DNA of 64,000 bases. It comes from a virus (lineage: Duplodnaviria > Caudoviricetes). The stretch lies in IMG/VR virus record IMGVR_UViG_3300033414_000001, positions 14,919 through 78,918 of that record. One strand, given 5' to 3'. Below are positions 1,993 through 64,000 of this stretch, piece by piece. Both the position numbers and the translations under genes were made by a program. Numbering within the stretch: the first letter of the stretch is position 1; every line of letters begins with the position of its first letter. A model generated the notes under the pieces. It was given only the letters and a program-made list of their open reading frames with translations. It was not told where the DNA came from and did not search any database.

Positions 1993-2343
1993 ATGACCGA
2001 CGCGCAACTGGTCACAGTTCTCAGGCGGGGCGGGTTCGCGCCCCGGGGCGTGCGCGCTCTCATGGCCGCGAAGCGCGAGTTGGAGCAGGAGATAACGAGA
2101 TGCGCTGGGCGCGCCCACAATCGGGGCGAGCTCAGAGGACTGCGCTGGAGCGGGAGAGAGCTTCGTTGCGCAGGAGAACTGCTCACCCGCTACGCCATCC
2201 AGTACTCGCTGACTCAACTGTCCCCGCCCGAAGAGTTGGCCAAGAGGCTTGATGCCGGCGGCCACGCTCGGGCGGCCATGGTGTTGCGCCGGCTCGGGGA
2301 CGAAATGGGAGTCCCGGCTCTTCTGCTGGAGTCGACGAGATGA
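1993..2343 (+). CDS. hypothetical protein
   Basis: The ATG at 1993 overlaps the TGA of an orphan gene tail (MGMTEDILTAFQGFARP*). Coupled to the gene at 2340. Confidence 0.55.
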   Translation: MTDAQLVTVLRRGGFAPRGVRALMAAKRELEQEITRCAGRAHNRGELRGLRWSGRELRCAGELLTRYAIQYSLTQLSPPEELAKRLDAGGHARAAMVLRRLGDEMGVPALLLESTR

Positions 2344-2585
2344 CCGACGCGCTCCGCCGATACCTAGGCCAGGTCGCCCTGCTGGAGAACATCCGCCGGG
2401 CCCACTCGGGCGCAGAAAGCCCCGAGGAGGAGTCGCTGCTCGCCGAAATGGACGCCTCCTGGGATGAGCTGAACGCGACGGATCGAGGCGAGCTGCGCCG
2501 GTTCCGCTCAGACGAACATCTCGGTATCGATACCGACGTGTTGGCGTTTCCCGGCATACCGCCCCGCTGTCCGCCGATCGGATGA
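2340..2585 (+). CDS. hypothetical protein
   Basis: ORF track; ATGA coupling; helical acidic composition. Confidence 0.6.
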   Translation: MTDALRRYLGQVALLENIRRAHSGAESPEEESLLAEMDASWDELNATDRGELRRFRSDEHLGIDTDVLAFPGIPPRCPPIG

Positions 2586-2658
2586 CGGAGCTCTTTCGCG
2601 GCTAGGTGGCGCGTGACCGCGGGCCGTGGCACAGTATCGCCGCGGAGGCGCACGACGC

Positions 2659-4320
2659 ATGAGTTCAGGGACGATCGTTGAGCCGCAGGCGGCCCGGCAG
2701 GCAGCGATGACGGCCAGCGGCAAGTTCATCGACGGCATCGCCCGTCTCGGCCTATCTCCGCGACAGCAAGCGCTGAACGAGTTGTGGTCGTGGTACCGAT
2801 GCGTGCGCTACGACGCGCGAACAACCGACTGGGACGGGTCGAAGCATGTCGACGGCCTCGACGCGGAGGTCATTTCCCAGGCCGCGTTCATCCCCCCGGG
2901 CTTCTACGACGCGAGCGGCGGCCAGGTCCCGTTGAAGTTCCGGCGCCCCACCGCGCCGTACGCGCTGGGAAAGGTCATCCCGGATCGGTTCACTGGCTTG
3001 CTCTTCTCGGAGCGCCGCAGTCCGCGCATCAGCGTGGAGGGGGACGAGAAGACCCAGGACTACGTGAGCGCGATAGCCGAGGTCGGGCGTCTGTGGCCGA
3101 CCATGATCCAGGCCCGAACCTACGGCGGCGCGACCGGGACCGTGGCGCTCGGGTTCTCGTTCCACAAGGGTCGGCCGGTCTTCGAGGTTCATGACGCGCG
3201 TTGGTGCGTCCCGGACTTCAAGGATCGCTCCCAGCTCGTTCTTCGCTCGATCGAGAAGCGGTATCAGTACCCGGTCGAGCAGCGCAACATGATCACCGGG
3301 CGGTGGGAGGAGATCCCGCACTGGTATCGTCGCGTCATCGACGAGCAGCGCGATACGCTGTATTCGCCAATTCCGGTGCCTGACAACGGCGAAGAGCCGG
3401 ACTGGGAGGTACAGGAGGAGGCGCAACACGGATACGGGTTCTGCCCCGTGGTGTGGATTCAGAACCTCCCGGTGCAGGATTCAATCGACGGGGATCCGGA
3501 CTGTCACGGCATCTTCCCGATGATTGAGTCCATTGATGCGCTGATAGCGCAGGGTAACCGATCCACGATCTTCAACTGCGACCCCACGCTAGTAGTCAAC
3601 AGCGATGCTACAATGTCGGATGTTTCGAAGGGGTCCGGGCATGCTCTCAAGATCCCCGCCAACTCCGGCGCGAGGTACATGGAAATCTCCGGCACGGGGC
3701 CGAAGGCCGCCTTCGAGGCAGCCGACAAGCTCCGAGCCTACGCGCTGGAGGTGGCCCAATGCGTGCTCGACCATCCCGACTCCGTGCAGCGAACCGCGCA
3801 GGAGATCGAGCGCGTCTACTCCTCGATGCTCGCCAAGGCCGACATCCTCCGCGAGCAGTACGGTCAGAGAGGGGTGCTTCCGCTGCTCAACATGGTCGTG
3901 GAGGCAGTCCGAAAGCTCGGCACTCCCGTGGCGGCCGAGCCCCAGGGAGTTGTGGGCGCCGCGATCGTGCGTCGCGTCGTCGAGCTCCCGCCTCGCCTGA
4001 TTCCGCAGGCGGACGGGGAGCCGCCGAAGCTCGTGCCCAGAGAGCTTGGGCCGCGCGGCAGTACGCTCCAGCTCCAATGGGGGCCATACTTCGCGCCGTC
4101 CATCACGGATACGTCCAACTCGGTCACTGCGGCAGCAAAAGCGAAAGAGGCGGGGCTCATCGACCGGGAGCACGCCAGCCAGTTCGTCGCCTCCGACTTC
4201 CGGGTGGAGGACGTGGGGCACATGCTCGCCAAGATCGAGCAGGAGAAGCAGGACGAGCAGGCTAGGATCGAGCAAAGCCTGATGAGTGGCCTAGGCGGGC
4301 CGAGCGGGTTGGGCGCGTGA
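2659..4320 (+). CDS. portal protein
   Basis: ~553 aa, first large gene of the head block, GGAGG RBS. The mixed alpha/beta layout (CPVVWIQN...GDPDC) and C-terminal helices fit SPP1 gp6-like portals. Confidence 0.75.
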   Translation: MSSGTIVEPQAARQAAMTASGKFIDGIARLGLSPRQQALNELWSWYRCVRYDARTTDWDGSKHVDGLDAEVISQAAFIPPGFYDASGGQVPLKFRRPTAPYALGKVIPDRFTGLLFSERRSPRISVEGDEKTQDYVSAIAEVGRLWPTMIQARTYGGATGTVALGFSFHKGRPVFEVHDARWCVPDFKDRSQLVLRSIEKRYQYPVEQRNMITGRWEEIPHWYRRVIDEQRDTLYSPIPVPDNGEEPDWEVQEEAQHGYGFCPVVWIQNLPVQDSIDGDPDCHGIFPMIESIDALIAQGNRSTIFNCDPTLVVNSDATMSDVSKGSGHALKIPANSGARYMEISGTGPKAAFEAADKLRAYALEVAQCVLDHPDSVQRTAQEIERVYSSMLAKADILREQYGQRGVLPLLNMVVEAVRKLGTPVAAEPQGVVGAAIVRRVVELPPRLIPQADGEPPKLVPRELGPRGSTLQLQWGPYFAPSITDTSNSVTAAAKAKEAGLIDREHASQFVASDFRVEDVGHMLAKIEQEKQDEQARIEQSLMSGLGGPSGLGA

Positions 4321-58656: not shown

Positions 58657-59042
58657 GCGACCGCACGGCGTCCCTCAAGGAGGTGCGCAGGGCGGCTCGG
58701 GCGGAGGCGTCCGATCCGGAGCTCCCGGCGCTGCTCGCGGAGGCCGAGGAGCTCCGCCCGCACACGCGAGCCGGCTGCGTCGACGGCCCGCGGCCGTGCC
58801 CCTGGCTCTCCTGCCGGTACCACCTCGGGATCAACGCGACGTCGGCGGGTGGGCTCCAGGTGCGCGACCCGGAGACGCTGCGGGAGAGCTGCGCGCTCGA
58901 CGTCGCCGATCGGGACGGCGTCACCCTGGAGGAGGTGGGCGGAATCATGGGGGTTACTCGCGAACGCATCCGCCAAATCGAAAGGGCGGCACTGCGCAGG
59001 CTCAATTCCGCGCTGCTCACCGAGACGCCGAGGGCCGAATGA
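58653..59042 (+). CDS. sigma70 region-4 HTH protein, myxobacterial type
   Basis: RP.TR..C..GPRPCP..SCRYHL...SCALDVA...G.TLEEVG.IM..TRERIRQIE. Confidence 0.85.
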   Translation: MSDRTASLKEVRRAARAEASDPELPALLAEAEELRPHTRAGCVDGPRPCPWLSCRYHLGINATSAGGLQVRDPETLRESCALDVADRDGVTLEEVGGIMGVTRERIRQIERAALRRLNSALLTETPRAE

Positions 59043-59605
59043 CCAGCTCGCTCGAAGCCCTCGCCCTGCGCCGCGCCTCCGAGGAGCGACCGGAACTGCT
59101 GTTGATCCCGGACCTGGACGAGGGAATCCCGGACGACAGAACCACGCTCCGCGGCTACGAGCTGGCCAAGCTGGCGCGCAGGCTGACGGGGCTGCGAGCT
59201 CGCGGGAGGGCCTGCTACCGCTGCGCGGTGGTGTTCGAGGTGGGCCAATCGCGGTGCCCTGTCCATGGCGAAACTCGGCCGCCGGCGATGGCCCGCGGGA
59301 GGCTCCGCGTTCTGCCATCCGTCTCCAGGCGCGAAACTGCGGCTCTGCGACGCGAGGCGATAGGCAGGGTGCTGGTGCGCCTCAGGGCGTCCCGTGGCTG
59401 GTCGCAGGAGGAGGCGGCAGACCACGGGAGAGTCCACCCCAACTCGCTGAGAGGCTGGGAGCTGGGGCGAGTTGAGCCCAGGGCCGTGACGCTCCATCGG
59501 CTGCTACTGGAGTGGGGCGAGGACGACACGGCGTTCTGGGATGCATGGGCGGCAGAGATAGACTCCAGTATGGCCGACGGTCGGGCGCGGACGGTGTCGG
59601 CATGA
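59039..59605 (+). CDS. Zn-ribbon plus XRE HTH protein
   Basis: CYRC...CPVHG; GWSQEEAA...VHPNSLRGWELG. Confidence 0.8.
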   Translation: MTSSLEALALRRASEERPELLLIPDLDEGIPDDRTTLRGYELAKLARRLTGLRARGRACYRCAVVFEVGQSRCPVHGETRPPAMARGRLRVLPSVSRRETAALRREAIGRVLVRLRASRGWSQEEAADHGRVHPNSLRGWELGRVEPRAVTLHRLLLEWGEDDTAFWDAWAAEIDSSMADGRARTVSA

Positions 59606-59623
59606 CTACCACACGCACCCGAC

Positions 59624-59681
59624 TTGACGGTCCACGCCCCGCGCTAATAGCATTGGACGCATGATCGTGTACGAGACGATC
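59624..59681 (+). promoter_or_regulatory. promoter plus operator copy 2 before the replication genes
   Basis: TTGACG-18-TAGCAT; palindromic GATCGT-N7-ACGATC at 59663-59681. Confidence 0.6.
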
Positions 59682-59788
59682 GGTAATTTCACTGTACCCG
59701 GCGGGTTTCTCCCGCTGGAGCGGCCGATGGCCGACAGACGCGCGAGCTCGTACCTCTTGCGTCTGTCGGCCGCCGCGATCTGGGGCTC

Positions 59789-60082
59789 GTGATGGCGTTC
59801 GCTCAGCGCGTAGGAGCCCTGTGGCGCTGCGATGGGTGCGGGATTGTCGCCGCCTGGGGCCAGGAGTGGCGGACTTTCGGATCGCACGCCGAGTACGATG
59901 AGGGCATAATCCGGTGGGTGTCATGCTCGGAAGCATGCGCCGACAAGATCCCGCCCCGACTGCGCGATCTGCCGAGCGGCCCTCAGGATCTCAGTACGCC
60001 CGGAATGCGCTCCCGGCTGCGGGAGAGCATCGAACGCCTGCGGCTTGAGGCTGAACTTGATCGGCTGCGGGAGCCATCCTGA
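59789..60082 (+). CDS. Zn-binding hypothetical protein
   Basis: CDGCG...CSEAC; coupled to the rep gene. Confidence 0.6.
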   Translation: MMAFAQRVGALWRCDGCGIVAAWGQEWRTFGSHAEYDEGIIRWVSCSEACADKIPPRLRDLPSGPQDLSTPGMRSRLRESIERLRLEAELDRLREPS

Positions 60083-61464
60083 TGGCCAGACAACGCACCC
60101 TCAAGCCGGGGTTTTTCACCAACGAGGACCTCGGCGCCTGCTCTCCGCTCGCGCGCCTCTTGTTCGCCGGCATGTGGTGTTGGGCGGATCGCCTAGGGCG
60201 AACCTTGGATCGCCCTAGGCGTTTGAAGGCCGAGATCCTCCCCTACGACGCCGCCGATGGAGAGGCTTTGGTGTCGGAATTGGCCCGCGCAGGGATGATC
60301 CGGCGCTATTCGGTGGGCGAAACGGCCATCATCCAGATCGTCAAGTTCTTGGAGCACCAGGACCCCCATCCAAGGGAAACCCCAAGCATTCTGCCGAACG
60401 AGGCTGGTGAATTCCCATCCCAAGGTCAGCCTAAGGCCAACCCTAGGGGCGCCAAGGTACCGCCAAGGTCACCTAGTCCTTCTAGGCCTTCTGGATCCGA
60501 GGAAGAAGAAGCCTGCTCGGAGCTGGCAGAAGCGCCAGCGTCCGAGCCCGACGAAGCACCGAGCCGAGAGGAGAGCCATGGAGCAGGAGCTGAAATACGG
60601 CATCGACGAGAAAACATCGAAGCAACTCGCGGAGGCATTCAAGCACCACCCCCCGTTCGGCGACCAGTCGGGGCGCTACATGCTGATCCGGGAGGGGGCG
60701 GCGAGGCTGGCGCGGACAATCTGCGGCCTCGCGCCGGCAAGCCGGGAACGGTCTCTCGCCCTGACGAACCTGGAGCAGGCGGTGATGTGGGCCAACTCCG
60801 CGATCGCTCGGAACGAGACCCAGGAGAACCCAGAGACCACGTAGCCCAGCCTGATCCGTGCGAGGATTCTCAGGGCAGCACAGCGGCGCCCGTCACCCCG
60901 ACTCACGTCGAGGAGGACTCCGATGCCCCTAGCGCCGGTGACGAACCGGCCGAATCTCCCGCCCAGGCCTCGCCCGAGGCCTCATCGCCGCGTGCGGGCG
61001 CGGCGCCCACCAGCGCCAGGGGAGCGGAGTCGCCCACGCTCGACCCCCCGCGAGCGAGCACCGCTCCACTGGCGCATTCTCCTCCGGCGCTGGAACTCGT
61101 TGCGCCTAGCCGCGCCAAGGCCAAGCCGAAACCCGAGCCCCCCGACCCACGCAAGGCCGCGCTCCGGGAAATCTGGGAGGCTGAATTCCTGACCGCCATC
61201 GGCGGCGCGTACCGGTGGCTAGGGGCGAAGGATGCGTGCGCGATCCGGTCCCTCGTTGCCGTGGACCCGGCCGAGTTTCGGGCGCGCGCCAGGAAGGCCC
61301 TCCGCATCGTCGGCTACGGCCGATGCACTACCGTCGCCCAGCTCAACATGCGCTGGAACGATCTCGCCGGACCGGGCGGCCCAGGCCCACCCACGAAGCC
61401 GCGCGTCATCGCCGCTCCATCGAACTTCAAAGACCCCGCCGTTCGTAACTATAAGTTCACATGA
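60082..61464 (+). CDS. phage replication initiator
   Basis: MAR.R.LKP.FF.NEDL..CS..ARLLF.G.W..AD..GR..D.P..LKAEI.PYD N-domain, long linker, C-terminal helical domain; followed by a DnaC-like gene. Confidence 0.85.
   Translation: MARQRTLKPGFFTNEDLGACSPLARLLFAGMWCWADRLGRTLDRPRRLKAEILPYDAADGEALVSELARAGMIRRYSVGETAIIQIVKFLEHQDPHPRETPSILPNEAGEFPSQGQPKANPRGAKVPPRSPSPSRPSGSEEEEACSELAEAPASEPDEAPSREESHGAGAEIRHRRENIEATRGGIQAPPPVRRPVGALHADPGGGGEAGADNLRPRAGKPGTVSRPDEPGAGGDVGQLRDRSERDPGEPRDHVAQPDPCEDSQGSTAAPVTPTHVEEDSDAPSAGDEPAESPAQASPEASSPRAGAAPTSARGAESPTLDPPRASTAPLAHSPPALELVAPSRAKAKPKPEPPDPRKAALREIWEAEFLTAIGGAYRWLGAKDACAIRSLVAVDPAEFRARARKALRIVGYGRCTTVAQLNMRWNDLAGPGGPGPPTKPRVIAAPSNFKDPAVRNYKFT
60190..60486. 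repeat. replication origin candidate: phased CCWWGG-like iterons and a 12-bp inverted repeat
   Basis: IR CGCCTAGGGCGA/TCGCCCTAGGCG at 60190-60221; CCAAGG/CCTAGG-like units at 60420, 60430, 60442, 60452, 60463, 60472 and 60481. Confidence 0.6.
60578..60844 (+). CDS. Acb2/Tad1-like cyclic-nucleotide sponge, nested in the +1 frame of rep
   Basis: GAGGAG RBS; F.HHPP..DQ..RY..IR.....LA..I....P.SRERSLALTNLEQAVMWAN.AIAR. Confidence 0.75.
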   Translation: MEQELKYGIDEKTSKQLAEAFKHHPPFGDQSGRYMLIREGAARLARTICGLAPASRERSLALTNLEQAVMWANSAIARNETQENPETT

Positions 61465-62135
61465 ACCCTCGAATTGCCGAAATCATCGAACGCTGCAAGG
61501 CCACCGCCGACTCGCCCGAGTTCAAGGCGAACGCTGCGAAGCTGGCCGAACTGGATCGCGAGATCGAAGCGTATGGGCGCGACTCCCGGCGGCGACATGC
61601 CGGCATCCCTGCGGAGCACGTCCCGCATCTCAGCGATCCGCGGGAGACGGTAGCCATGGAGTCGGCGCGATCCTGGGTGGAGTCGCAGCGCCGGAGCGGG
61701 CCACCGTTCCACCTCGCGCCGCAGCCGTTCTTGATCCTGGGGGGAGATCTCGGCGTAGGGAAGAGCCACGCAGCGGCCTGGTGCGTGGATCAGCTCGGCG
61801 GTCTGTTCATCCCGATGGCCGACGTGGCGGCGCGCAAATTCGAGGGCGAATTCGAGAGCGAGTTGATTCGGGCGCGCTGCCTGGCGCTCGACGACTTCGG
61901 GACGGAGCCGCTCGACGCGGGCGGGTGGCAGGAGGCGCACCTGGAGAGGGTGTTGCGCGGGCGCTACTCGGAGCAGCGGCCTACGCTCATCACGACGAAC
62001 GTGTGGGCGGAGGAGCTCAAGGAGCGCATCGGGCCGCGCGTCTGGGATCGCGTGATGGCTGGCGGGCCGGAATCGCTGGTGCTGTGCGAGGGAGAGAACC
62101 TTCGGCGCCATTGGGCGGAGACGGATCATGGGTAG
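61461..62135 (+). CDS. DnaC/IstB-like helicase loader ATPase
   Basis: Walker A GDLGVGKS, Walker B LALDDFG, R.....PT.ITTN, G.RV.DR. Confidence 0.9.
   Translation: MNPRIAEIIERCKATADSPEFKANAAKLAELDREIEAYGRDSRRRHAGIPAEHVPHLSDPRETVAMESARSWVESQRRSGPPFHLAPQPFLILGGDLGVGKSHAAAWCVDQLGGLFIPMADVAARKFEGEFESELIRARCLALDDFGTEPLDAGGWQEAHLERVLRGRYSEQRPTLITTNVWAEELKERIGPRVWDRVMAGGPESLVLCEGENLRRHWAETDHG
61536..61659 (+). repeat. direct repeat copy 1 (at least 124 bp)
   Basis: Identical to 63877-64000. Confidence 0.95.
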
Positions 62136-62490
62136 ATCACCGAAAGGAATCAGGGCGATGATCATTCACGGGGCGAAGCTGGGGCGATGCGCTCGCTGCG
62201 GTGCGAAGCTGGAGTCGGGCCGGCTGCACATGTGCGATTCCCTGCACCGCAAATTACGGTGGGCGAGATGTCTCCCGTATCTGGCGCTCGCCATGACGGT
62301 AGCGTTTGCCTACAGCGTAGGGGTGGAGCTGAACGTTCCGCTTCTGGTGGCTGCGGGGATCGGGCTCGTGACGTTCGAGCTGATCCCCGCCATCAAGATG
62401 CGACCCGGCCGAAGGCTCGCGGCGATGGGTGTCGGTGCGGCAGCATGGATCGCGTGCATGGCGTGGGTGGCGGGCAGGTGGGCGCGATGA
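62128..62490 (+). CDS. Zn-ribbon plus membrane protein
   Basis: CARCG...HMC, then ~3 TM segments. Confidence 0.65.
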   Translation: MGRSPKGIRAMIIHGAKLGRCARCGAKLESGRLHMCDSLHRKLRWARCLPYLALAMTVAFAYSVGVELNVPLLVAAGIGLVTFELIPAIKMRPGRRLAAMGVGAAAWIACMAWVAGRWAR

Positions 62491-63439: not shown

Positions 63440-64000
63440 ACCATTCGGAAACTCCGAAGAGTTGCGCCGGCCCCGTTCTCTTCGTCGTCCCCGTCGCTCC
63501 AGTCGGCGTGAACGCATCGTACGTGCGTCGCTCGATGACCGGTGGTGGCCCGGGCCTGCGAAAGACCGACGCAGCGAAGGCCTACCGGGACGCGATCATG
63601 ATGGCTGGCTACGCCGCGATGCGCGGGCGGCGCCCGTTTGATGGCCCGGTCGCCGTGAGCCTGCTGTTCGTATTCCCATCGAGACGCTCGGATCTCGATG
63701 GGCCGATCAAGAGCACGCTCGACGCGCTTCAGTCGGCGACCAGGGCGCGTTATCGCGGCGCCGGAGTCATAATCAACGACAACCAGGTCGAGGAGCTCCA
63801 GGTGCGCCGAATCATCGATCCCGAGAAACCCCGCGTCGAGATCGAAGTGATTGATACGAGATCGTTAGCGGAATTGGCGAAGCTGGCCGAACTGGATCGC
63901 GAGATCGAAGCGTATGGGCGCGACTCCCGGCGGCGACATGCCGGCATCCCTGCGGAGCACGTCCCGCATCTCAGCGATCCGCGGGAGACGGTAGCCATGG
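63436..64000 (+). CDS. rusA: RusA-family Holliday junction resolvase (no stop in window; runs into the duplicated segment)
   Basis: PV..N..Y...K.Y...GPVAV.L.F.FP..R.DLDG.IK..LDAL...I.NDNQV..L.V.R..D...PRVEIEV. Confidence 0.85.
   Translation, partial: MNHSETPKSCAGPVLFVVPVAPVGVNASYVRRSMTGGGPGLRKTDAAKAYRDAIMMAGYAAMRGRRPFDGPVAVSLLFVFPSRRSDLDGPIKSTLDALQSATRARYRGAGVIINDNQVEELQVRRIIDPEKPRVEIEVIDTRSLAELAKLAELDREIEAYGRDSRRRHAGIPAEHVPHLSDPRETVAM
63877..64000 (+). repeat. direct repeat copy 2 (truncated by window edge)
   Basis: Identical to 61536-61659. Confidence 0.95.

What the first reader, a model, noticed from the sequence alone, without database searches (positions are those of the whole stretch)
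60578..60844. Acb2/Tad1-like anti-defence sponge gene fully nested out of frame inside the replication initiator
Seen: an 88-aa ORF with its own GAGGAG RBS lies in the +1 frame within the low-complexity linker of the 460-aa rep ORF, which stays open across it. The rep-frame translation of this stretch looks like off-frame filler, while the nested frame reads FKHHPPFGDQSGRYMLIR...LA..I...PASRERSLALTNLEQAVMWANSAIAR. Established: this matches the small helical-hairpin family grouped with Acb2/Tad1, whose C-terminal helix is SRE..A.T..E.A.MW.N. Those proteins sequester CBASS/Thoeris signalling nucleotides. Inference: the phage inserted an immune-signal sponge into an essential gene just downstream of the origin iterons. 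This would couple its expression to replication, protect it from loss, and hide it from gene callers that forbid overlaps.
Basis: partly seen in the sequence, partly recalled or inferred. Interest (0 to 1): 0.85.

Follow-up and report, generated by a model that had tools for sequence, protein, structure and literature searches.

The report
Acb2-type sponge gene nested inside rep
An uncultured phage carries a complete gene of the Acb2/Tad1 family (proteins that soak up bacterial immune alarm nucleotides) in a shifted reading frame inside the floppy linker of its replication initiator gene, where two annotation pipelines missed it.

Summary
ORF 60578-60844 (+, 88 aa, GAGGAG box 4 nt before the ATG) lies in the +1 frame inside the 460-aa rep ORF 60082-61464, which has no stop across it.

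The nested product is a clear member of Pfam PF24729 Acb2_Tad1_hairpin (63.7 bits, cut-off 27). It keeps all 14 invariant residues of its subfamily. These include the Arg/Thr pair that binds cyclic trinucleotides in both Acb2 and Tad1.

Third-position GC marks the nested frame as the coding one over this stretch (0.88-0.90, against 0.4-0.6 in the rep frame).

Rep is still one gene. Its N- and C-domains occur together in 292-302-aa relatives. The C-domain has no start codon of its own. The overlap falls in a roughly 230-residue linker predicted to be disordered.

None of 160 rep relatives carries acb2, and none of 85 other acb2 loci is nested. This is a lineage-specific insertion, not overprinting.

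An independent assembly gives the identical Rep. Neither pipeline called the nested gene.

Caveats:
- It is a singleton with no expression data.
- An open rep frame needs no special selection (14% of synonymous resamplings; 4 of 12 GC-rich natural homologues).
- The adaptive story (coupling to replication, protection from loss) is untested.
- One short metagenome contig diverges exactly at the GAGGAG box. This is unexplained.

The parts
60082..61464 (+). Replication initiator (rep) ORF, 460 aa, a single open frame
   Evidence: the N-terminal 160 residues hit the replication-initiation families phrog_16167 (E 1e-37), phrog_12556 and phrog_1408. The protein is present as called in the public protein collection. 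An identical protein is encoded by an independent Logan assembly. It is the only rep of this type in the genome.
60082..60411 (+). Rep N-terminal DNA-binding-type domain (residues 1-110)
   Evidence: 53-70% identical to 35 homologues, with 28 invariant columns. AF2 pLDDT is about 90 with alpha/beta elements. Rep-frame GC3 is 0.7-0.8.
60412..61131 (+). Rep linker (residues about 111-350), predicted disordered; it contains the nested gene
   Evidence: AF2 pLDDT is 41-52 with no secondary structure. Composition is low-complexity. Nothing in the relatives aligns to residues about 163-300. Median rep length in 164 relatives is 291 aa against 460 here.
60568..60573 (+). GAGGAG Shine-Dalgarno-like box of the nested gene; it reads Glu-Glu in the rep frame
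   Evidence: 60568 is also the exact point where metagenome contig L249 stops matching the phage.
60578..60844 (+). Nested acb2-type gene, 88 aa, in the +1 frame relative to rep
   Evidence: PF24729 at 63.7 bits, E 1.9e-17. All 14 invariant columns of a 47-sequence subfamily alignment are kept. GC3 is 0.88. AF2 pLDDT is 89 with three helices, including a long hairpin. BFVD top hits are Acb2/Tad1 hairpin proteins. R56/T63 align with CbTad1 R90/T97.
61132..61374 (+). Rep C-terminal four-helix domain (residues about 351-431), in the same frame as the N-domain
   Evidence: 41-43% identical to the C-termini of the single-chain Reps P0002 and P0003 (E 4e-19 and 4e-18), and 64% identical to P0157. 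AF2 pLDDT is 80-94. Rep-frame GC3 is 0.82-0.90. There is no in-frame ATG, GTG or TTG between 60845 and 61260.
61461..62135 (+). DnaC-like helicase loader; its start overlaps the rep stop (ATGA)
   Evidence: phrog_50 at E 3e-21. Relatives L002 and L003 have the same rep-dnaC order.
60190..60492 (.). Cluster of CC[AT][AT]GG motifs inside rep, upstream of the nested gene; a possible origin
   Evidence: Eight motifs lie in about 280 nt, against a genome-wide rate of 1 per 759 nt. A 17-nt stretch, GTCCTTCTAGGCCTTCT, is identical in the rep linker of the distant relative L002.

Best explanation
A ready-made gene of the Acb2/Tad1-hairpin sponge family was inserted, probably by illegitimate or modular recombination, into the long disordered linker of the phage's only replication initiator gene. 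The inserted DNA is a multiple of three bases and has no stop in the rep frame. Rep is therefore still made as one 460-aa chain, and its linker now includes 89 residues of 'off-frame' Gly/Arg/Pro-rich filler.

The sponge gene would be translated separately from its own GAGGAG-ATG start on the same early/replication mRNA. Its product is most likely a small helical protomer that assembles into a hexamer and sequesters host immune signalling nucleotides. The conserved Arg56/Thr63 pair points to a cyclic-trinucleotide pocket. The ligand of any second pocket is unknown.

Shown here: the anatomy, the family membership, the intactness of both genes, the absence of the block from relatives, and the missed annotation. 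Inferred: translation of both products, hexamer formation, ligand binding, and any selective benefit of the nesting.
For: - Family and intactness.
- R56/T63 match the cA3-binding and hexamer residues R90/T97 of CbTad1 (alignment; roles in PMC10680739). They also match the R/T pair of Acb2 (PMC10312549; weak hhalign to JBD67 Acb2).
- The coding signal switches to the nested frame over 60590-60830.
- Rep is one gene. The N- and C-domains are joined in relatives. The C-domain has no start of its own. The linker is predicted disordered.
- It is an insertion, not overprinting. The family is widespread as stand-alone genes. Rep relatives lack it and are about 170 aa shorter.
- The linker is a recombination joint. 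The same C-domain sits behind an unrelated N-domain in P0157, and the N-domain is paired with other C-termini.
- The assembly is corroborated. An identical 460-aa Rep with the same neighbours is encoded on a 43-kb Logan contig. A JGI contig is 100% identical over 1,049 nt covering acb2 through dnaC.
Against: - It is a single lineage. There are no close relatives, so selection on either frame cannot be measured.
- There are no transcript, ribosome or protein data.
- The open rep frame is compatible with chance, so nothing shows that the arrangement is old or maintained.
- Contig L249 has an unrelated 38 nt immediately left of the GAGGAG box. A variant with another left junction may therefore exist, or that contig end is chimeric.
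- Matches to solved Acb2 and Tad1 structures are no better than to generic helical hairpins.
- The CDN-pocket residues of PaMx33 Acb2 (Y11, K26) could not be mapped with confidence.
Confidence: 0.7

Rival explanations
1. Recent neutral passenger. The acb2 cassette landed in the tolerant rep linker by accident. Rep survives because the insert happened to be in phase and stop-free. The nested gene is poorly expressed or not expressed, and will decay. There is no dual-coding selection.
For: The rep frame is open by chance in 14% of resamplings and in 4 of 12 GC-rich natural homologues. The arrangement is a singleton among 85 other acb2 loci and 160 rep loci. The SD-like box is simply a Glu-Glu codon pair of an acidic linker.
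Against: All 14 invariant and the nearly invariant subfamily residues are intact. Start, stop and SD are present at the position where homologues start. GC3 and codon use match the phage. The family is a known anti-defence gene that a phage would benefit from expressing.
Confidence: 0.17
2. Assembly artefact or chimera. The acb2 block was joined into rep by the assembler and does not exist in any one phage genome.
For: The source is a metagenome-derived contig. Short contig L249 shows a different sequence left of 60568. A 120-bp exact repeat lies 700 nt downstream and at the contig ends.
Against: Two assemblies by different pipelines encode the identical 460-aa protein across both junctions. 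The block keeps rep in phase and stop-free, and matches the phage's GC3. A chimera would need two precise joins inside one gene.
Confidence: 0.06
3. Rep is a disrupted pseudogene, or is made as separate N and C pieces, and the long open frame is a GC-rich accident.
For: Long chance ORFs abound in this 66% GC genome. In relative L109 the rep frame runs on by chance over the next gene.
Against: The N- and C-domains are in the same frame with no stop for 460 codons. The C-domain is conserved (E 4e-18 and 4e-19) and has no start codon of its own. This is the only rep in a complete circular genome. Rep-frame GC3 returns to 0.82-0.90 in the C-domain.
Confidence: 0.04
4. Ribosomal frameshifting in the linker makes a RepN-Acb2 fusion, rather than a free Acb2.
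For: The +1 frame is open for 92 codons upstream of the ATG (stop-to-stop 181 codons).
Against: No slippery site or stimulatory structure was found; the fold of 60520-60640 has z = -0.76. The upstream +1 frame reads as Arg/Lys-rich junk. Homologues start where the ATG lies.
Confidence: 0.03

Closest known systems
Acb2 (anti-CBASS 2; PaMx33/JBD67/T4 Vs.4; Acb2 homolog 43, PDB 9PTQ)
   Same: Small size (88 aa). Predicted all-helical protomer with two long antiparallel helices. Same Pfam family. The best solved relative by profile is Acb2 homolog 43 (E 6.8e-5). The Arg...Thr pair, 7 residues apart on the last helix, is kept.
   Different: Only about 20-30% identical to characterised members. The Y11/K26 dinucleotide-pocket residues could not be mapped. 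The ligand is unknown, and family members differ (cGAMP, cA3, 3'cADPR; PMC12393519). Known acb2 genes are stand-alone (for example between head genes in JBD67), not nested.
Tad1 (Thoeris anti-defence 1; CbTad1 7UAV, CmTad1 8KBB)
   Same: The C-terminal helix motif SRE..ALT..E.A.MW.N is nearly identical. It contains the R90/T97 cyclic-trinucleotide and hexamer residues.
   Different: Tad1 is 123-138 aa with an added N-terminal part that forms the gcADPR pocket. The window protein lacks that part, and only the last helix aligns.
Internal (nested) overlapping genes of phages, e.g. phiX174 E in D, lambda Rz1 in Rz
   Same: One complete gene lies out of frame on the same strand inside another, and each has its own start.
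   Different: Those cases are attributed to overprinting, where a new frame is born inside an old gene (PMC8227390), and the inner gene is lineage-restricted. Here the inner gene is an old, widespread family that was inserted. The 'new' reading is the outer gene's frame across it. The lambda and phiX examples are from my own knowledge.
Lambda O-type initiators with the origin inside the gene's linker region
   Same: A two-domain initiator with a flexible middle part whose DNA carries a second function. Here there is a motif cluster at 60190-60492, followed by the nested gene.
   Different: The second function in lambda is a DNA site (iterons), not a second protein. The lambda comparison is from my own knowledge, and the origin here is not demonstrated.

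Membership tests
Pfam PF24729 Acb2_Tad1_hairpin | Score above the curated gathering threshold over the full hairpin model | tested here: met
   63.7 bits against a cut-off of 27, E 1.9e-17, model positions 1-58 of 58. All 120 listed homologues (of 360 found) carry PF24729.
Acb2/Tad1 sponges | Two long antiparallel helices (hairpin) in a small protomer | tested here: met
   The AF2 model has pLDDT 89 with helices 31-51 and 56-80 plus a short helix 11-20. Twenty of the top 23 BFVD fold hits are Acb2/Tad1 hairpin proteins at probability 1.00. This is a prediction, not a solved structure.
Acb2/Tad1 sponges | Arg and Thr 7 residues apart on the last helix; these bind cyclic-trinucleotide phosphates and support the hexamer | tested here: met
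   R56 and T63 are invariant in the 47-sequence subfamily. They align with the SSRENACALT motif of CbTad1. The roles of R90/T97 and R67/T74 come from PMC10680739 and PMC10312549.
Acb2 (PaMx33 type) | Tyr11/Lys26 cyclic-dinucleotide pocket | tested here: inconclusive
   The N-terminal parts do not align (hhalign to JBD67 Acb2 covers only the last helix, E 0.23). Y7 and K22 have the same 15-residue spacing, but K22 is not conserved in the subfamily.
Acb2/Tad1 sponges | Hexamer assembly and measurable binding of an immune signal | not testable with these tools
   No multimer modelling or biochemistry was available.
Acb2/Tad1 sponges | Fold similarity to solved Acb2 or Tad1 structures above background | tested here: inconclusive
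   Vs.4 (7uq2) scores Z 5.3 and Tad1 Z 4.4-4.7, among many unrelated helical hairpins at Z 5-6.
Phage replication initiator (phrog_16167 type) | Conserved N-domain plus C-domain in one polypeptide, followed by a helicase-loader gene | tested here: met
Overprinted (de novo) overlapping gene | The inner gene is restricted to the lineage that has the overlap | tested here: not met
   The inner gene has hundreds of stand-alone homologues in unrelated phages. The outer gene's relatives lack the segment.

The most novel reading that the evidence does not exclude
Both products are made and functional, and the arrangement is a stable dual-coding architecture that arose by a route not described in the overlapping-gene literature I could search. 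In this route a complete, horizontally acquired anti-defence gene is dropped into the disordered linker of an essential gene, which then reads through it in another frame. If so, disordered linkers of essential phage genes, especially in GC-rich phages where off-frames are often open, could hold anti-defence genes that are invisible to standard gene callers.
Probability: 0.4. Interest if true: 0.72.

Novelty: new variant of a known kind. Interest (0 to 1): 0.6.

Why it matters
Anti-defence genes are catalogued almost entirely from called genes. This is an unmistakable member of a well-studied sponge family, yet it is absent from a 15-billion-protein collection because it lies inside another gene.

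It also shows a second way to make a nested gene pair: insertion into a tolerant linker followed by read-through, rather than overprinting. In that case the structured, conserved protein is the inner gene and the disordered 'new' reading belongs to the outer one.

It suggests a cheap screen: six-frame HMM scans for anti-defence families inside long linkers of GC-rich phage genes. In the samples examined here, however, it is a single case.

Tried and rejected
- Foldseek and VIA-align against the PDB. Acb2 and Tad1 chains appear but do not stand above unrelated hairpins, so this neither supports nor refutes membership.
- PADLOC and NCBIfam: no hit for the nested product.
- Blastn of the region against the phage collection: no match.
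- Close relatives of rep or dnaC in IMG/VR: none.
- Other nested cases. L012, L047 and L061 have alternative frames open over acb2, but these are chance extensions of neighbouring genes or Arg-rich junk. Many homologues have long antisense ORFs, which I take as shadow frames.
- Long rep relatives (L089, L176, L182, L135) show no frame switch or nested family member.
- Flanks of the insert (60380-60577 and 60845-61150) have no similarity to anything next to acb2 homologues or in rep relatives, so the right border of the insert is undefined.
- No promoter- or terminator-like site lies inside rep. There is no notable RNA structure at the nested start.
- The 38 nt at the end of L249 match nothing in the phage, in rep upstream, or in IMG/VR.
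- Supplementary sequences of the sponge survey paper are not held, so I could not check whether this subfamily was assayed.

Full report
**Source.** The window is the last 64 kb of a 78,918-bp IMG/VR virus record. The record is 66% GC, has a 127-bp terminal overlap and is rated complete.

**The observation.** The sequence is as described.
- An ATG at 60578 is preceded by GAGGAG at 60568-60573, with a 4-nt spacer. It opens an 88-codon frame that ends at TAG 60842-60844.
- This frame lies one base to the right of the frame of a 460-codon ORF, 60082-61464, which has no stop anywhere.
- Over 60590-60830, GC content by codon position is 0.88-0.90 at the third position of the nested frame. The rep frame's third position falls from about 0.8 to 0.38-0.62, then recovers to 0.82-0.90 in the last 350 nt of rep. 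On composition, the nested frame is the coding frame there.

**What the nested gene is.**
- It matches Pfam PF24729 (Acb2/Tad1 hairpin domain) over the whole model: 63.7 bits against a gathering score of 27, E 1.9e-17. It also matches phrog_1454 at E 4e-22.
- A search of 5.8 billion protein clusters gave 360 relatives. All those listed carry PF24729, and the best is 62% identical.
- In an alignment with 46 of them, the window protein keeps all 14 invariant columns and the nearly invariant ones.
- A profile of that alignment finds the solved Acb2 homolog 43 (9PTQ, E 6.8e-5) and several Tad1 chains (E 5e-3), and nothing else of note.
- AlphaFold2 gives a confident three-helix model, pLDDT 89, with helices at 11-20, 31-51 and 56-80.
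- Against predicted viral structures, 20 of the top 23 hits are annotated Acb2/Tad1 hairpin proteins at probability 1.00.
- Against solved structures, Acb2 (Vs.4, Z 5.3) and Tad1 (Z 4.4-4.7) are no better than unrelated hairpins. That test is uninformative for a protein of this kind.
- R56 and T63, both invariant in the subfamily, align with SSRENACALT of CbTad1. There R90 and T97 hold the phosphates of cA3 and support the hexamer (PMC10680739). The equivalent R67/T74 do the same in PaMx33 Acb2 (PMC10312549). A weak hhalign match to JBD67 Acb2 puts R82/T89 at the same columns.
- The N-terminal dinucleotide pocket (Y11/K26) could not be mapped.
- Ligand range varies within the family, including members that bind 3'cADPR instead of CBASS signals (PMC12393519). 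The target signal here is therefore open.

**Rep is still one gene.**
- The first 160 residues hit replication-initiator PHROGs, with phrog_16167 at E 1e-37.
- Thirty-five homologues are 253-394 aa long. Across 164 relatives from IMG/VR and GTDB genomes the median length is 291 aa, and the window's 460 aa is the second longest.
- Two relatives, P0002 (302 aa) and P0003 (292 aa), carry both the N-domain and a C-domain that is 41-43% identical to window residues about 345-435 (E 4e-19 and 4e-18). They are followed, as here, by a DnaC-like gene.
- In the window the two domains are in the same frame. No ATG, GTG or TTG occurs in that frame between the acb2 stop and 61261, which is already inside the C-domain. 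The C-domain can therefore only be made by reading through the overlap.
- AlphaFold2 on the whole protein gives two confident domains, at residues about 20-110 and 350-430 (pLDDT 80-96). They are joined by 230 residues at pLDDT 41-52 with no secondary structure.
- The overlap is residues 166-254. It is Gly/Arg/Pro/Ala/Glu/Asp-rich with a hydrophobic fraction of 0.12, like the linker on either side.

**Insertion, not overprinting.**
- The closest acb2 homologues are ordinary stand-alone small genes in other contexts.
- Of 85 other acb2 loci, 80 of them from IMG/VR, none lies inside a real longer same-strand gene. The few spanning frames are chance extensions in GC-rich DNA.
- Of 160 loci holding rep relatives, none has an acb2 hit in any frame within 3 kb.
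- The genome has one rep and one acb2.
- The rep linker is a natural joint. The same C-domain (64% identity) sits behind an unrelated N-domain in P0157, and the N-domain is found with several other C-termini.
- The reviews of viral overlapping genes that I could search describe overprinting as the origin and do not mention insertion.

**How surprising is the open rep frame?** Not very.
- I re-drew the acb2 codons synonymously from the phage's own usage. The rep frame stayed open in 13.7% of 20,000 trials, with a mean of 1.8 stops.
- Among natural stand-alone homologues with GC of 0.60 or more, the same frame is open in 4 of 12.
- The other same-strand frame of the window's acb2 has three stops.
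- With the 1-in-3 phase requirement, a few per cent of random insertions of such a cassette would leave rep intact. Since rep is presumably essential, only those would be seen.
- The arrangement needs no special adaptation. Nothing here shows that nesting itself is selected.

**Reliability of the sequence.**
- The identical 460-aa protein is encoded, with the same upstream neighbours, on a 43,226-bp contig of an independent Logan assembly of SRR10143150. That contig ends just inside dnaC, near the start of a 120-bp repeat.
- In both gene sets only the 460-aa gene is called.
- By exact look-up, the 88-aa product and the 145-aa GTG-extended product are absent from the 15-billion-protein collection.

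**An unexplained variant.**
- A 1,087-bp JGI contig (L249) is 100% identical to window 60568-61616. Its first 38 nt match nothing in the phage, in rep upstream or in IMG/VR.
- The break falls on the first base of the GAGGAG box, which is also a rep codon boundary.
- In one frame the foreign 38 nt end in a TGA that overlaps the box, as at an ordinary gene junction.
- In the rep frame they read as a Ser/Pro-rich stretch like rep linkers, but with a TGA at contig bases 6-8.
- This is either a chimeric contig end or a second genome in which another sequence abuts the cassette. If the latter, 60568 is the left border of the mobile block.
- The right border is undefined, because the 300 nt after acb2 resemble nothing.

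**Mechanism.**
- No promoter- or terminator-like site lies inside rep. One promoter-like site lies at 59624-59653, upstream of the small ORFs that precede rep. The nested gene would therefore ride on the rep-dnaC transcript and start at its own SD-ATG. The region shows no unusual structure (z = -0.76).
- The SD is a Glu-Glu codon pair of the acidic linker.
- I consider translation of both products likely but unproven.

**Verdict.** This is a real and well-supported nested gene pair, and a new member of the Acb2/Tad1 family in an unusual position. The origin route appears undescribed. It is a singleton without expression data.

Noticed in passing
window 61540-61659 and 63881-64000 (= contig bases 8-127): A 120-bp exact direct repeat. 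One copy lies inside the N-terminal part of the DnaC-like gene. The other forms the C-terminal end of the RusA-like ORF that runs across the contig ends. The flanks differ on both sides. The Logan contig and L249 both stop near or inside this repeat.
   Followed up: partly
window 60190-60492; L002 rep linker: Eight CC[AT][AT]GG motifs lie in about 280 nt of rep, against a genome rate of 1 per 759 nt. They include tandem GCCAAGGT 11 nt apart. A 17-nt stretch, GTCCTTCTAGGCCTTCT, is identical in the rep linker of L002, whose Rep is only 57% identical. This may be an origin inside the rep gene. Part of the signal could come from the conserved peptide PKAN..AKVPPR.
   Followed up: partly
L249 bases 1-38 (JGI contig Ga0102851_10678382): The contig is 100% identical to window 60568-61616, but its first 38 nt are unrelated. 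The break falls exactly at the first base of the acb2 GAGGAG box.
   Followed up: partly
L251 (protein P0157, 276 aa): The Rep C-domain of this phage (64% identity) occurs behind a completely different N-terminal domain. Rep domains are therefore shuffled at the linker.
   Followed up: partly
L109 bases 759-1328: In this rep relative the rep frame has no stop for about 190 codons past its C-domain. It overlaps a well-formed 190-aa ORF in another frame. This is either a chance read-through or a lost stop.
   Followed up: no
L009, L043, L083, L087 and others, around bases 2100-3200: Many stand-alone acb2 homologues, even at 47-58% GC, are spanned by antisense open frames of 200-316 codons. These are probably shadow frames. 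I did not examine them.
   Followed up: no
window 60923-61192: An 89-codon ATG ORF in the same +1 frame, preceded by GAGGAGG, lies in the linker after acb2. Its Arg/Pro-rich product looks like off-frame junk.
   Followed up: no
window 59624-59653: The only sigma-70-like promoter match in 59000-62300 (TTGACG, 18-nt spacer, TAGCAT). It lies in the gap before the small ORFs that precede rep.
   Followed up: no
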